This document shows, piece by piece, positions 49,843 through 53,366 of a stretch of DNA of 64,000 bases. This DNA comes from a virus. The first letter of the stretch is position 1; each line of letters opens with the position of its first letter. The translations under genes and the position numbers were made by a program. The notes beneath the pieces were generated by a model. It was not told the origin of the DNA. It made no database searches and saw only the letters and a list, made by a program, of their open reading frames with translations. Where the stretch lies: positions 1-64,000 of IMG/VR virus record IMGVR_UViG_3300026488_000025, one strand, 5' to 3'.

Positions 49843-50187
49843 TTAGTATCTACTTGGTAAATCTTTTTGTGTCTTCATTGGCCCAAAATTAAAATATTTC
49901 TTACCACTGATTCTTACGGCGAAATAATAAGCATAAGCAGCAGTTCTATTCCAGATATTACTAAACCAATTCGATGCTCTTTCTGCATCTTCTAGCATAG
50001 CATCTAAAAATGATTTGTCTGCATATTTTCTGTCTTTGTTCTCACCACCTCTCCAGTAGTAAAAGTCGTGATGATTACAAGATGCCTTGAAGAAGAATTG
50101 TGGAGGCGTAAAACCCATTCCTTTACCACCACATCCGTTAGTGATTTCTGATTTTTGTTTATCTGTTAATTGACTGTATTTTAGCAT
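49843..50187 (-). CDS. DUF1353/PLA2-like late protein
   Basis: NGCG...CNHHDFYY...R..AD..F...YYFAVR..G. Confidence 0.65.
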   Translation of the reverse strand: MLKYSQLTDKQKSEITNGCGGKGMGFTPPQFFFKASCNHHDFYYWRGGENKDRKYADKSFLDAMLEDAERASNWFSNIWNRTAAYAYYFAVRISGKKYFNFGPMKTQKDLPSRY

Positions 50188-50236: not shown

Positions 50237-50516
50237 TTAAAAATTAGATTGAATCGTTTATGATGTTTTCGTTTACTGGCATCTCCGAAGAGAACATTAT
50301 CAATTTAATGCCGAAGGAACCATCTATTTGCTCATAGATAAGACACATTTATTTGATATGTGTATCGAGTTATTCATTATCATAACTGAAAAGTTGAACT
50401 CATTTCGATGCTTATAGCATCAGGCTTTGTCTTCAACTCTGACTGTAACAGCTTCCATTTAAGTTTCCTTAATAATTAAGTTTGATGTATTCATAAACTG
50501 TAATTCTAATTTTTAA
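50237..50516 (-). ncRNA. Candidate Y-RNA-like ncRNA 3 (about 280 nt, multi-hairpin)
   Basis: Closing stem with the conserved internal-loop motif, about 8 internal hairpins including UUCG and GAAA tetraloops; late promoter at 50542-49. Confidence 0.65.
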
Positions 50517-50575
50517 CAATAATAATTTAAAGAAGTATCATTATTTATAGACCCGATAAGAGGTCTATTTAAGTA

Positions 50576-50647
50576 TTAAACTTTGCACTTACCAAATTTA
50601 CGAAGCAATTTACAAAGTAAACAGTTCTTACGCATCCAATTTAACAT
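50576..50647 (-). CDS. 23-aa basic Cys-containing micropeptide
   Basis: AAAGGAG RBS; MLNWMRKNCLLCKLLRKFGKCKV. Confidence 0.45.
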   Translation of the reverse strand: MLNWMRKNCLLCKLLRKFGKCKV

Positions 50648-50661
50648 AGTTCTCCTTTGTA

Positions 50662-52185
50662 TTAAAGTTTGATTGCTAGAATCTCATCGATTAATGCGTT
50701 TGAGTTTTTCCACATCTTCGGAATTACGCTTAACATCTTGTCCGAAAATCCTGAAACTTCCAGAATGTCATTAGATAATTTCATTGGTGTGTCACCGCCG
50801 TATCCTTGAAGATTCCAGAATAGTATCTTAACATTTGGGTTGATTTTTCTATATGCTGTTACTGCTTGTTTGAATGAACCTAAACTATTTGATTGCATAT
50901 CTGTTAGGATAACAATTTTATCTACGAATGTTTTCGTTTTCACTAAATCTGCCATACTAGCATTAAGATTTGTACCATATCCTTGTGTGTTTGTTCTCTT
51001 AATGAAATCGAACGGAGAACCACTGATATCCACTCTACGAGCATTGTCTGCCCATAAGTAACCTAATGTTTTGGTTTTATCTAATCCCACTAACATACTT
51101 GCCATTAAAATCTTACCGATTTTGAATGGGCTCATTTCTGTAGCACTTGAACCCCATCCTGAACTACCCATTGAACCTGACTCATCTAGTAACAGTGCTA
51201 CACTCTCACCTTCATCAACGATTGGGATATTCTTTGCTGAAATAATGAAACCTGCTTCGATACCATCTAATAGTTCTTTTTGTAAGATTCTATCGAATGA
51301 CATTGCTTCTACTGCTTCTGCTGCTTGAATAAATCTGAATGGAAGTACCATAGATTTACGACACGCTTTCTCATTTCTGAATAACAATGAAAGTTTTGTA
51401 ATCATTGCTTGTCTATCTGATTGGTCGAAACCATCAAGAGTTTCTAAGATATTTTTAAGGTTTTTAAGACCAGCCATATATCCTAGTTTTCCTTCGATTA
51501 ACATACTGAAATAGTTTTGAGCTCTTGATTCACCAGTTGATTGAGCATTAACTGTTTGAGCAGTAACGATGTTCTCTAATGTTCCTTCGATTAATCTTTT
51601 GAATACATCTGTATCTTTTGCTTTACCTTTTGCTACAAGAGTTTCTGGATTTGGACGAGCAAGTTTAACGATGTCACGAAGTTTAATCTTACCTGAACCA
51701 CCTGAATATTTCTTTAATTGATACTCATCAAATTTTGACTCAAATACATCTTTGATTGCTCTACGAAGAGAATTTGGAATCATTTTACCTTTATTGCGAG
51801 TATTGAATAAAGCAACCATTTCCATAGCATCATCAGGTCTTACAATAGTTTTAGTAAGAGCACTTCTTAAATAATCAGTACCTTTAACATTTTCTGCTAA
51901 GATAGCACCCATTATATGTGATACAGTTCTAAGATTACCTTCATTACGAACATAAACTGCTGCTTTTGCTGCGAACTCTGAATCGCCTTCAGCAACCATA
52001 CCTATAATACGATTGATTCTATCTGATTCTGATTCGTAATATGAATTACCATTTACCATACTTGATAAGATAACTGAAGCTAACTCTTTACGAGCATCTT
52101 CATATTTGTATGCTACACCACCTGCTAAGTTTGTAGTTTCTGCTTTTTTCTCTGTTTGATTGATTGTTTCGTTGAATTTTGCCAT
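50662..52185 (-). CDS. Ro60/TROVE-domain RNA-binding protein with vWA domain
   Basis: TNLAGG.AY, KAAVYVR...NLR, FDEYQLKKY, LPFRF, MIDAS DESGSM, GT and LTD.Q. Likely start 52185. Confidence 0.9.
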   Translation of the reverse strand: MAKFNETINQTEKKAETTNLAGGVAYKYEDARKELASVILSSMVNGNSYYESESDRINRIIGMVAEGDSEFAAKAAVYVRNEGNLRTVSHIMGAILAENVKGTDYLRSALTKTIVRPDDAMEMVALFNTRNKGKMIPNSLRRAIKDVFESKFDEYQLKKYSGGSGKIKLRDIVKLARPNPETLVAKGKAKDTDVFKRLIEGTLENIVTAQTVNAQSTGESRAQNYFSMLIEGKLGYMAGLKNLKNILETLDGFDQSDRQAMITKLSLLFRNEKACRKSMVLPFRFIQAAEAVEAMSFDRILQKELLDGIEAGFIISAKNIPIVDEGESVALLLDESGSMGSSGWGSSATEMSPFKIGKILMASMLVGLDKTKTLGYLWADNARRVDISGSPFDFIKRTNTQGYGTNLNASMADLVKTKTFVDKIVILTDMQSNSLGSFKQAVTAYRKINPNVKILFWNLQGYGGDTPMKLSNDILEVSGFSDKMLSVIPKMWKNSNALIDEILAIKL

Positions 52186-52251
52186 TGTGTTCTTTCCTTT
52201 GTTTAATTCTCTTACGAGATAATGTTGAAGTGTCCTCACTTCACCTTGTGT

Positions 52252-52400
52252 GTTCTTTTAGTAATATTAGATGAAATCTACCAAGATGTCATTCCCGAGG
52301 GAATGTTGTGGTTTGACCCACGAGTTCAAATTAAGAGTTTGTGTGCTGCAATCAGCGCGATGTAATCTGTGGTATGTAATTCTAACATTACTAAAAGAAC
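52252..52400 (-). ncRNA. Candidate Y-RNA-like ncRNA 1 with tRNA-like arms
   Basis: 20-bp closing stem, conserved internal loops, and inner D-like, anticodon-like (CUCUUAA) and T-like hairpins. Confidence 0.7.
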
Positions 52401-52498
52401 TTAGAAATTTTTTGATGAAATCGAATTTGATGTATATGTGTAATTCAATTAATTTGCGATGTAATCAAAATCTGTAATTCAAAAAATTTATAAGTTCT
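52396..52498 (-). ncRNA. Candidate Y-RNA-like ncRNA 2 (minimal)
   Basis: Same internal-loop motif with different, compensated stems; starts just after the early promoter at 52510-52536. Confidence 0.65.
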
Positions 52499-52610
52499 CT
52501 TTGTTCGTAGATGTATTATAACGAAAGTTTACTTAATTTTTGTGTAATTAAGTATTTTCTATCCATCTTTCTTTTCTTATATGTATTTATATAGACCAAA
52601 AGTCTATATA

Positions 52611-53366
52611 CTACTTATGTTTACACTTATCGAAATGCCATTGTTTCATTCCATTAATCTTTCCAGACTTATTGCAGTGAGGACAAGTAACTGTCTCTCT
52701 ATTCTTAGCACTATCACTCATTTGTTTCTTAGTACAATCAGAGTGTTCTTTATCTAAGAATGGTTTAGAAGATATTATAACTCCATCAGCATATAGTTTT
52801 TTCATAAGTTTGGATTGTTTCTCTTTTCTTTCCTCTGAATGTTTCTTGCCTAGACAAGGATGAATCTCTCTATTCTTAGCACTATCACTCATTTGTTTCT
52901 TAGTACAATCAGAGTGTATCTGATTGTACATAGGATTACCAACACCTGCTTTTACTTTTCTCATCTTATTTTTTGTTTCTTCTGAATGAGATAGATTAAG
53001 ATTATATGTTTCATAATGTTTTGAATTATACTTTCCTGACCCATTCATTCTTCTAATTGCTTTACTCATCTTTCGTTCACCATAAGTATAAGAGATAGAT
53101 TTGTAGTGTTTCCAAATAAGTATATGACATATAAAGTGCTCTCTAGCGGTAAGAAGAATGCTATTCCATTTATTAGACCTTAGGTCACCATATTCAGGAA
53201 ACATAGATTCGGGTAGAATATGGTGATTCTCAAAGTATATATACTCATCTTCAGATTTTTTAAGTTTCTTACGATTCTCATTTTGGGCATTGTTTATTAT
53301 GCTAAGGTATAATTTGCCATATTTGGTTTCTTGTTTAAGGTGTGATTGTATTTCTGTAAGTGTCAT
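52611..53366 (-). CDS. HNH homing endonuclease (MobE-like) with NUMOD3 repeats
   Basis: ENHHILP...LTAREHFICH; duplicated HSDCTKKQMSDSAKNRE; terminal CPHC...WHFDKC. Confidence 0.85.
   Translation of the reverse strand: MTLTEIQSHLKQETKYGKLYLSIINNAQNENRKKLKKSEDEYIYFENHHILPESMFPEYGDLRSNKWNSILLTAREHFICHILIWKHYKSISYTYGERKMSKAIRRMNGSGKYNSKHYETYNLNLSHSEETKNKMRKVKAGVGNPMYNQIHSDCTKKQMSDSAKNREIHPCLGKKHSEERKEKQSKLMKKLYADGVIISSKPFLDKEHSDCTKKQMSDSAKNRETVTCPHCNKSGKINGMKQWHFDKCKHK

What the first reader, a model, noticed from the sequence alone, without database searches (positions are those of the whole stretch)
50237..52498. Phage Ro60/TROVE gene flanked by three RNAs with a shared covarying internal-loop stem (candidate new Y-RNA class)
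Seen on the minus strand: three hairpin RNAs (52396-52498, 52252-52400, 50237-50516) share the pattern long stem-GA AUUACA-8/9-bp stem-GA (U/A)UACAUC...variable domain...ACA UC-stem-GAUU(U/C)(C/A)A UC-long stem. Stem sequences differ but pair in every copy, while the loop nucleotides are conserved. The variable domains are about 25, 70 and 200 nt. Two RNAs lie in tandem between an early promoter and the Ro60 gene; the third has its own late promoter downstream. Established: bacterial Ro60 (Rsr) genes sit beside Y RNAs that have a Ro-binding stem and a variable effector module. Inference: these are the Ro ligands, with a binding motif unlike the canonical bulged helix, giving modular early and late RNPs.
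Basis: partly seen in the sequence, partly recalled or inferred. Interest (0 to 1): 0.87.

Follow-up and report, generated by a model that had tools for sequence, protein, structure and literature searches.

The report
Phage Ro60 gene with variant Y RNAs
A phage Ro60 (TROVE) gene is flanked by three small structured RNAs from a well-supported RNA family that looks like a new variant of the known Ro60-partner Y RNAs, with a differently built stem where Ro60 normally binds.

Summary
On the minus strand, three hairpin RNAs flank a full-length Ro60/TROVE gene. They share outer stem, GAAUUACA, 6-7-bp stem, GAWUACAUC, variable domain, ACAUC, stem, GAUUYMAUC, outer stem. This occurs exactly 3 times in the window against 0 expected.

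A covariance model built from copies in related phages found 58 distinct copies. Both stems covary strongly (88.5% paired against 43-50% for shifted controls). G-U pairs outnumber A-C 14 to 1 on the Ro60 strand. UACAUC is invariant in 58/58.

About 25 of 30 copies in nine Ro60-encoding phage records, including cultured Vibrio phages Va1 and phiKT1024, lie within 2 kb upstream of Ro60 on the same strand. The rest sit inside tRNA arrays. One of these is a fourth copy in this genome, outside the window.

In relatives the same module closes RNAs with a permuted tRNA-like domain. These hit Rfam YrlA at 36.6-43.5 bits, like the published CcrColossus Y RNA. So these are Y-RNA relatives in which this module replaces the canonical GNCGAAN0-1G site (0/58 copies).

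Ro60 binding and the early/late promoter claims remain untested. Phage Ro60 with tandem Y RNAs is already known, so this is a new variant of a known kind.

The parts
52396..52498 (-). RNA W1 (about 103 nt). 18-bp outer stem; loop A 5' strand GAAUUACA 52473-52480; inner stem 52467-52472 paired with 52423-52428; loop B GAUUACAUC 52458-52466; 24-nt apical domain that repeats GAAUUACA; ACAUC 52429-52433; loop A 3' strand GAUUUCAUC 52414-52422.
   Evidence: R1 covariance model 71.3 bits, E = 2.8e-12.
52252..52400 (-). RNA W2 (about 149 nt). 18-bp outer stem that shares 5 nt with the 3' end of W1. Same module: loop A 52375-52382, loop B 52359-52367, ACAUC 52285-52289, GAUUUCAUC 52270-52278. The 69-nt apical domain has three hairpins. 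W2 holds the position just upstream of Ro60 that YrlA-type RNAs hold in relatives.
   Evidence: MFE -50.3 kcal/mol, z = -9.2. R1 67.5 bits. No YrlA or tRNA match even in a 161-nt search at E <= 10. ARAGORN finds no tRNA.
50662..52185 (-). Ro60/TROVE gene (507 aa, ATG at 52185; TROVE ring domain plus vWA domain with DESGS).
   Evidence: Pfam TROVE E = 1.4e-20. PDB 9L5Y/9KOP phage phiLo Ro60, residues 17-491, E = 1.5e-9. 52% identical to Vibrio phage Va1/phiKT1024 TROVE proteins.
50237..50516 (-). RNA W3 (about 280 nt), downstream of Ro60. 10-bp outer stem; loop A 50499-50506; inner stem GUUUAU/AUAAAC; loop B GAAUACAUC 50484-50492; 217-nt multi-hairpin apical domain; ACAUC 50262-50266; GAUUCAAUC 50247-50255.
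   Evidence: Recovered by R1 although not in its seed (32.9 bits, E = 6e-4). Shares the hairpin AUCUAUG.G.AAAUAGAYGG with the Ro60-adjacent RNA of Vibrio phage Va1.
52515..52520 (-). TATAAT hexamer 16 nt upstream of the W1 stem. A possible -10 box for a W1-W2-Ro60 transcript.
   Evidence: Read from the sequence. Not reported by the consensus scan. Inference only.
50542..50549 (-). TATAAATA (T4-late-promoter-like octamer) 25 nt upstream of the W3 stem. A second copy lies at 52584-52591(-) upstream of W1.
   Evidence: 31 copies in the window against 14.5 expected, 21 of them on the minus strand. Function not tested.

Best explanation
W1, W2 and W3 are phage-encoded Y-RNA-like non-coding RNAs of one family. 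A fourth copy lies in a tRNA array 15 kb away in the same genome.

Each RNA is closed by a conserved two-stem, two-internal-loop module:
- a variable outer stem of 10-18 bp;
- loop A, GAAUUAMA opposite GMUUUYAUC;
- a variable 6-bp inner stem;
- loop B, RAWUACAUC opposite a short NNNUY.

The module carries an interchangeable apical domain. In relatives this domain is often the permuted tRNA-like domain of YrlA-type Y RNAs. The module sits where canonical Y RNAs carry their Ro60-binding site and is the only non-tRNA part conserved across the family.

The most likely mechanism is that the phage Ro60 ring binds the conserved single-stranded loop nucleotides. The different apical domains then act as gates or as tethers to other factors, by analogy with Ro60-Y RNA-PNPase complexes.

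The RNAs are probably cut out of longer transcripts: W1-W2-Ro60 in the window, and tRNA operons elsewhere. The long outer stems and abutting tRNAs suggest RNase III and RNase P type processing.

What is shown: the RNA family, its structure, its strand, its linkage to Ro60 and to tRNA arrays, and its homology to YrlA-type RNAs. What is inferred: Ro60 binding to the module, the effector role of the apical domains, processing and timing of expression.
For: Specific motif. Exactly 3 matches in the window against 0 expected.

Covariation, 18-sequence alignment. 88.9% of cells paired against 43-49% for slid controls. Covariation score 0.865 against about 0.2. All 18 pairs change on both sides.

Covariation, 58 distinct copies. 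88.5% paired against 43-50%, and 0.911 against 0.21 or less. This alignment is fitted to the model.

Strand. G-U 14 against A-C 1 on the Ro60 strand.

Loop conservation in 58 copies. A15, A18, A20 and UACAUC are invariant. Loop A's 3' strand reads G57/58, U54, U56, U55, A56, U58, C53. The linked Ro60 proteins are only 43-59% identical.

Linkage. R1 hits lie directly upstream of Ro60 on the same strand in G001 (4), G003 (6), G005 (4), G006 (3), G007 (3), G008 (1), Va1/phiKT1024 (1) and metagenome loci L289, L279 and L278. No real hit appeared in 910 kb of unrelated phage DNA except one duplicate locus.

Clade specificity. No hits in four out-group Ro60 loci.

Homology to Y RNAs. Module-closed RNAs with a T arm, acceptor hairpin and D arm hit Rfam YrlA RF02553 at 43.5, 41, 37.4 and 36.6 bits. 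The CcrColossus RNA in a phage where Y RNAs were reported (PMC12135203) scores 42.3 bits.

Literature. Ro60 mainly reads the 5' strand of a disrupted helix (10.1101/312249, PMC12135203). Phage phiLo Ro60 binds two Y-like RNAs encoded upstream of its gene (PMC12135203).
Against: - No binding or expression data exist for any member.
- The canonical GNCGAAN0-1G or GGUCC motif is absent in 58/58 copies, so Ro60 recognition cannot be carried over by homology of the site itself.
- None of the three window RNAs has a detectable tRNA-like domain.
- Roughly one copy in six in the viral records, and most copies on short metagenome contigs, lie in tRNA arrays rather than beside Ro60.
- G009 encodes Ro60 with no module RNA beside it and three copies more than 100 kb away.
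- Ro60 often sits inside an RNA-gene island with tRNAs and tmRNA. That island could explain part of the adjacency.
- All carriers may belong to one phage lineage, so synteny by descent contributes.
Confidence: 0.65

Rival explanations
1. The module is not a Ro60 site. It is a recognition or processing element for another factor of the phage RNA-gene island. Candidates are RNase III cutting the long outer stem, an RNase P/Z-coupled release signal, or a phage RNA repair or modification enzyme. On this view the RNAs sit near Ro60 only because Ro60 lies in the same island.
For: - Copies are embedded between tRNA genes on the same strand and abut them. Examples: G000 67609-67734 between tRNA-Thr and tRNA-Arg, plus L126, L128, L274, L276, L285 and L288.
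- G009 has three copies in tRNA arrays and none at Ro60.
- tRNAs or tmRNA flank Ro60 in several relatives.
- The canonical Ro motif is absent.
Against: - In the window, three copies flank Ro60 and no tRNA lies within the 64-kb window.
- 25 of about 30 copies in nine Ro60-encoding records lie within 2 kb of Ro60 on its strand.
- A processing signal alone does not explain nearly invariant loop nucleotides on both strands, nor the YrlA-type apical domains. Those RNAs need a Ro60 site somewhere, and the module is the only other conserved part.
- Processing of the outer stem is compatible with the main explanation.
Confidence: 0.22
2. The elements are cis-acting parts of the Ro60 mRNA (leader, attenuator or terminator hairpins) that regulate Ro60 expression.
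For: W1 and W2 lie between a possible promoter and the Ro60 start, and no intrinsic terminator separates them from the gene.
Against: - The same module occurs downstream of the gene (W3) and in tRNA arrays far from any Ro60 gene.
- It occurs in tandem arrays of up to six upstream of Ro60.
- It encloses tRNA-like domains.
- No U-tracts follow the stems.
Confidence: 0.04
3. The elements are DNA-level repeats: a miniature mobile element with terminal inverted repeats, or protein-binding DNA sites.
For: They are multi-copy, each bounded by an inverted repeat, and homing endonuclease genes lie nearby.
Against: - Stem sequences differ between copies and change by compensatory substitutions. Copies of a mobile element would share them.
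- G-U 14 against A-C 1 shows selection on one transcribed strand.
- Orientation always follows Ro60 or the tRNA genes.
Confidence: 0.02

Closest known systems
YrlA-type bacterial and phage Y RNAs (Rfam RF02553; Chen et al. 2014, PMC4201824)
   Same: - Encoded beside Ro60 on the same strand, often several per locus.
- A long stem formed by the 5' and 3' ends, with internal loops below an apical effector domain.
- In relatives of this phage the apical domain is the same permuted tRNA mimic (T arm, acceptor hairpin, D arm), which hits RF02553 at 36.6-43.5 bits.
   Different: - The stem module has its own conserved sequences (GAAUUAMA / RAWUACAUC / GMUUUYAUC) on both strands. It lacks GNCGAAN0-1G in 58/58 copies; only a GAA at the helix/loop junction is shared.
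- All Rfam hits fall below the gathering score of 69.
- The three window RNAs have no detectable tRNA-like domain.
- Some members lie inside tRNA operons.
Thermus phage phiLo Ro60 with Yrl1 and Yrl2 (PMC12135203)
   Same: A phage Ro60 gene with tandem Y-like RNAs immediately upstream. The window protein matches phiLo Ro60 over its full length.
   Different: The phiLo RNAs were picked by the CGAA motif and shown to bind by EMSA and cryo-EM. The RNAs here lack that motif and have no binding data. The array here spans both sides of the gene and includes a 280-nt member.
S. Typhimurium YrlB and D. radiodurans Yrn1/Yrn2 (Y RNAs without a YrlA-type domain)
   Same: Short Y RNAs that share the Ro60-binding stem with a tRNA-like sibling but carry a different or minimal apical domain. 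This matches W1 and the many 80-95-nt members.
   Different: There is no sequence relationship, and the stem motif differs.
RNase III processing hairpins of T7-like phages and rRNA processing stalks
   Same: Two helices separated by a conserved asymmetric internal loop within polycistronic phage transcripts. This comparison rests on my own knowledge, not on a tool result.
   Different: Those elements enclose no tRNA-like or large apical domains and are not linked to Ro60. Cleavage was not tested here.

Membership tests
Y RNA (Ro60-associated ncRNA) | Encoded next to the Ro60/Rsr gene on the same strand (bacterial and phage Y RNAs) | tested here: met
   W1 and W2 lie 67-313 nt upstream of the Ro60 gene and W3 lies 146 nt downstream, all on the minus strand. 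The same holds in 8 of 9 related viral records and in 3 metagenome loci.
Y RNA (Ro60-associated ncRNA) | Long stem formed by pairing of the 5' and 3' ends, with internal loop(s), below a variable effector module | tested here: met
   Folds. Covariation of both stems.
Y RNA (Ro60-associated ncRNA) | Canonical Ro60-binding motif on the 5' strand (GGUCCGA in animals; GNCGAAN0-1G or CGAA in bacteria and phages) | tested here: not met
   0 of 58 copies have GNCGAA or GGTCC in the first 45 nt. CGAA appears in 7, and only by chance after loop B. Loop A begins with GAA in 51/58 copies, a partial resemblance.
Y RNA (Ro60-associated ncRNA) | Physically bound by Ro60 | not testable with these tools
   Needs EMSA or RIP with the phage protein.
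Y RNA (Ro60-associated ncRNA) | Size about 80-130 nt | tested here: inconclusive
   W1 (103 nt) fits, W2 (149 nt) is slightly long and W3 (280 nt) is far outside. Family lengths, measured with 12-nt stems, run 80-284 nt with a mode of 85-95. True transcript ends are unknown.
YrlA (Rfam RF02553) | tRNA-like domain with conserved T and D arms that scores against the covariance model | tested here: not met
   Window RNAs: no RF02553 or tRNA hit at gathering score, at E <= 10 in 2.8 kb, or in 161 nt around W2. Relatives' module RNAs score 36.6-43.5 bits, below the gathering score of 69 but equal to the CcrColossus RNA at 42.3 bits, in a phage with reported Y RNAs.
Ro60 / TROVE protein | TROVE HEAT-repeat ring domain followed by a vWA domain with a MIDAS motif | tested here: met
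   Pfam PF05731 74.4 bits against a cut-off of 23. Full-length alignment to phiLo Ro60 structures. DESGS is invariant in the clade alignment.

The most novel reading that the evidence does not exclude
The two-loop module (GAAUUAMA, 6 bp, RAWUACAUC, paired with GMUUUYAUC) is a previously undescribed Ro60-recognition element used by a clade of large AT-rich phages. It lets one phage Ro60 be loaded with a whole panel of adaptor RNAs: tRNA mimics, T-arm-only RNAs, minimal hairpins and 200-nt multi-hairpin RNAs. Some of these are made from tRNA operons, which would tie Ro60 RNPs to phage tRNA biogenesis or to anti-defence.
Probability: 0.5. Interest if true: 0.72.

Novelty: new variant of a known kind. 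Interest (0 to 1): 0.6.

Why it matters
Ro60-Y RNA particles are conserved from bacteria to humans, yet how bacterial and phage Ro60 proteins recognise their RNAs is known only from a short 5'-strand motif.

This family offers 58 natural variants of a different, larger and strongly conserved module attached to many apical domains. It also occurs in cultured, tractable Vibrio phages (Va1, phiKT1024).

That makes three things directly testable:
- whether Ro60 can read a second kind of site;
- what the non-tRNA-like apical domains recruit;
- why phages place such RNAs in tRNA operons.

A phage Ro60-like protein was recently reported to counter a bacterial defence system, with the suggestion that neighbouring 'tRNA genes' might be Y RNAs (bioRxiv 10.1101/2024.10.10.617714). 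That makes the ligands of phage Ro60 proteins of current interest.

The family is also missing from Rfam and would improve phage genome annotation.

Tried and rejected
- Rfam search at gathering score on the whole window, and E-value scans of the region and of W2 alone, gave no meaningful family.
- Megablast of the region against GenBank phages found no match.
- A single-protein locus search in IMG/VR found nothing. It worked only with a 4-sequence alignment.
- The first exact 5'-half pattern scan of viral contigs returned 109 loci, but most were a conserved coding stretch (CATCCT, CATTCT and AGATAAC spacers) or chance. They score about 26 bits or less with the model.
None had convincing paired stems (one borderline locus, L246, got no R1 match), so this is no evidence for the module in cellular genomes, and the scan was incomplete.
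- The same pattern in viral contigs added no new family members.
- The long apical domains of W3 and relatives did not align convincingly, apart from one hairpin shared by W3 and Va1.
- I looked for pairing across loop A (GAAUU with AUUUC). The positions are too invariant to test, and the few variants do not compensate, so I left the loops as unresolved internal loops.
- Whole-record searches of metagenome contigs were not possible.
- Two Y-RNA reviews were not held, and Chen 2014 has no supplement text held. I could not check its list of 22 phages directly.
Neither ARAGORN nor the covariance models support this.
Full report
**1. What is in the window**

On the minus strand, a 507-aa gene (50662-52185) encodes a complete Ro60 orthologue.
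- Pfam TROVE matches at E = 1.4e-20.
- It aligns over residues 17-491 to the solved Ro60 of Thermus phage phiLo, 9L5Y/9KOP, at E = 1.5e-9.
- The vWA MIDAS-like DESGS is invariant among its relatives.

Each reads: outer stem, GAAUUACA, a 6-7-nt strand, GA(U/A)UACAUC, variable domain, ACAUC, the complementary strand, GAUU(U/C)(C/A)AUC, outer stem.

Both half-patterns occur exactly three times in 64 kb. All matches are on the minus strand, with none expected from shuffles. The closing stems survive MFE folding, with z-scores of -4.3, -9.2 and -3.6.

**2. Not a known Rfam family as it stands**

No Rfam family reaches its gathering score anywhere in the window. No YrlA, Y_RNA or tRNA match appears at E <= 10 in the 2.8-kb region. 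The same holds for a 161-nt search around W2. ARAGORN finds no tRNA in the window.

**3. The family elsewhere**

An exact-pattern scan of IMG/VR gave many chance or coding matches. It also gave a few contigs with several full copies. Those contigs encode Ro60 proteins 51-56% identical to the window's.

A 4-protein alignment retrieved six Ro60 loci. The cultured Vibrio phages Va1, phiKT1024, phiTY18, pv27, SRILMA and TDDLMA carry a 52%-identical Ro60. The next best phage Ro60 proteins are 29% identical or less, so this is a distinct Ro60 clade.

A descriptor script found the module upstream of Ro60, on the same strand, in nearly all of these loci. I aligned 18 copies and imposed the two stems.
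- 88.9% of cells pair, against 43-49% when the partner is slid.
- The covariation score is 0.865 against about 0.2.
- All 18 pairs change on both sides.

The inner stem was part of my selection criterion. The outer stem was not, and it pairs in 86% of cells. G-U pairs outnumber A-C 14 to 1, so the structure is selected in RNA made from the Ro60 strand.

The covariance model R1 recovered W3, which was not in the seed, and further copies. In 910 kb of unrelated phage DNA it found only one real hit, L086 at 46.8 bits with the same spacer as L119. A strict composite pattern found 22 metagenome loci, of which 21 are confirmed by R1 at 50-81 bits.

The model-fitted alignment of 58 distinct copies keeps the same statistics: 88.5% paired and a score of 0.911. 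Its consensus is:
- loop A 5' strand: G53 A51 A58 U56 U54 A58 M A58;
- inner stem: 6 bp, usually opening with G-C or G-U;
- loop B: R A57 W U58 A58 C58 A58 U58 C58, then G in 45 copies;
- 3' of the apical domain: NNNUY, which is ACAUC in 20 copies;
- loop A 3' strand: G57 M U54 U56 U55 Y A56 U58 C53.

**4. Why these are Y-RNA relatives**

In relatives, many module-closed RNAs contain a T arm (GGUUCGAnUCC), a closed acceptor-like hairpin and a D arm (UAGCUCAGUUGGUAGAGC), in that permuted order. This is the YrlA architecture described by Chen et al. (PMC4201824).

These RNAs hit RF02553 at 43.5, 41, 37.4 and 36.6 bits. That is below the gathering score of 69, but it equals the 42.3 bits of the CcrColossus RNA, in a phage where Y-like RNAs have been reported (PMC12135203).

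In these RNAs the module occupies the stem in which canonical YrlA carries its Rsr/Ro60-binding module. It is the only conserved part outside the tRNA mimic. The published motif GNCGAAN0-1G (CGAA; GGUCCGA in animals) is absent from all 58 copies. Only a GAA at the junction of the outer stem and loop A is shared.

Four out-group Ro60 loci have no R1 hit at E <= 1. These are CcrColossus, a crAss-like phage, halovirus HGTV-1 and a 635-kb uncultured phage. The module is therefore specific to this Ro60 clade.

**5. Genomic contexts**

I counted nine viral records that encode the clade Ro60: G000, G001, G003, G005, G006, G007, G008, G009 and Va1. About 25 of 30 module copies lie within 2 kb of Ro60 on its strand. 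Such windows make up about 2% of the sequence.

The remaining copies lie inside tRNA arrays on the tRNA strand, often abutting tRNAs.
- A fourth copy in this genome, just outside the window (G000 67609-67734, minus strand, 61.4 bits), lies between tRNA-Thr and tRNA-Arg.
- Three copies lie in G009, which has none beside its Ro60.
- One copy lies upstream of tRNA-Thr in Va1.
- Several lie on metagenome contigs.

Ro60 itself often sits near tRNAs and a tmRNA gene in relatives. Linkage to Ro60 is therefore strong but not exclusive, and part of it may reflect a shared RNA-gene island. In the window, however, three copies flank Ro60 with no tRNA within the 64 kb window.

**6. Subtypes**

The apical domains fall into four groups.
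- (a) YrlA-type tRNA mimics.
- (b) A conserved T-arm plus UUGAAGCUGGU type. Members are the G000 far copy, L017a, G009a and L041 13526-13654.
- (c) Minimal 20-40-nt loops, the commonest type, including W1. W1's loop repeats GAAUUACA.
- (d) Long 140-220-nt multi-hairpin domains, including W3. W3 shares one hairpin with the Va1 RNA.

W2 holds the position next to Ro60 that YrlA-type RNAs hold in G001, G003 and G005. Its domain is not detectably tRNA-like. The record is only about 33% complete, so a YrlA-type member may exist elsewhere in this phage.

**7. Mechanism**

Ro60 recognises Y RNAs mainly through bases of the 5' strand of a helix that it prises open (10.1101/312249, PMC12135203). Invariant single-stranded nucleotides flanked by freely covarying helices are what a protein-binding platform of that kind should look like.

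I therefore favour binding of the phage Ro60 to loops A and B, with the apical domains acting as gates or tethers. The precedent is PNPase in RYPER-type complexes, including the phiLo phage system (PMC12135203).

The long outer stems and abutting tRNAs suggest release from polycistronic transcripts by RNase III and RNase P type cuts. W1 and W2 share 5 nt at their bases. No terminator separates them from Ro60, which is consistent with co-transcription. All of this paragraph is inference.

**8. Promoters**

A TATAAT at 52515-52520 precedes W1. The consensus scan does not list it, and promoter-like sites are not enriched. TATAAATA lies 25 nt upstream of W3 and also upstream of W1. The octamer is over-represented and biased to the minus strand, which fits a T4-like late promoter. 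No evidence shows which RNA is early or late.

**9. Novelty**

Phage Ro60 genes with adjacent Y RNAs are known: 22 phages in PMC4201824, and phiLo Yrl1/Yrl2 in PMC12135203.

These features appear to be undescribed:
- the module itself;
- its replacement of the CGAA-type site;
- the breadth of apical domains attached to it;
- its presence inside tRNA operons.

No Rfam family matches. Text searches for the motifs found nothing relevant. A wider literature search found only general statements about phage Ro60.

I rate the finding a new variant of a known kind. It has solid comparative support and a clear experimental path in cultured Vibrio phages.

Noticed in passing
G000 contig 67609-67734 (-), outside the window (locus L124 3609-3734): A fourth module RNA in the same phage genome. 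It has a perfect T-arm-like hairpin (GCCCG UUCGAUU CGGGC) and lies between tRNA-Thr and tRNA-Arg. The 64-79.6 kb part of the record holds 20 tRNA genes.
   Followed up: yes
window 50575-50646 (-): A 23-codon Cys/Lys-rich ORF (MLNWMRKNCLLCKLLRKFGKCKV) with a good AAAGGAG ribosome-binding site, directly after the Ro60 stop and before W3. It may be a real micro-gene.
   Followed up: no
window 50552-50571 (-) and 52596-52614 (-): Two hairpins of the form TAGAC...GTCTA whose 3' arm runs into TATAAATA (GGTCTATAAATA). One follows the Ro60 operon and one follows the endonuclease gene. They may be combined terminator and late-promoter units.
   Followed up: partly
window 52611-53366 (-): A NUMOD3-containing homing-endonuclease-like gene immediately upstream of the Y-RNA/Ro60 unit (Pfam NUMOD3, E = 5.7e-14).
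   Followed up: no
window 50435-50473 (-), inside W3: A 12-codon mini-ORF (MEAVTVRVEDKA) preceded by AAGGAAAC within the apical domain of W3. It is probably chance, but W3 might not be purely non-coding.
   Followed up: no
L041 8137-8588 and L017 1987-2494 (related phage contigs): GOLLD RNAs (Rfam RF02032; 218 bits, and 115 bits below threshold) lie in the same tRNA / Y-RNA islands as the module RNAs.
   Followed up: no
L119 2115-2503 (+), L122 2801-3182 (-), L118 7870-8185 (+), L037 1160-1645 (-): Phage-encoded tmRNA genes lie within 1-4.5 kb of the Ro60 gene in four related phages. In G009 (L122) the tmRNA takes the place upstream of Ro60 where the Y-like RNAs sit in the other phages.
   Followed up: partly
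window 52434-52457 (-), apical loop of W1: The apical loop of W1 contains a third GAAUUACA octamer identical to loop A. Its orthologue in G001 has GAAUUAAA at the same place. This hints that the octamer is read as single-stranded sequence.
   Followed up: partly
window 49843-50187 (-): A 114-aa ORF after W3 gives a weak, sub-threshold match to prokaryotic phospholipase A2 (26.5 bits against a cut-off of 29.4).
   Followed up: no
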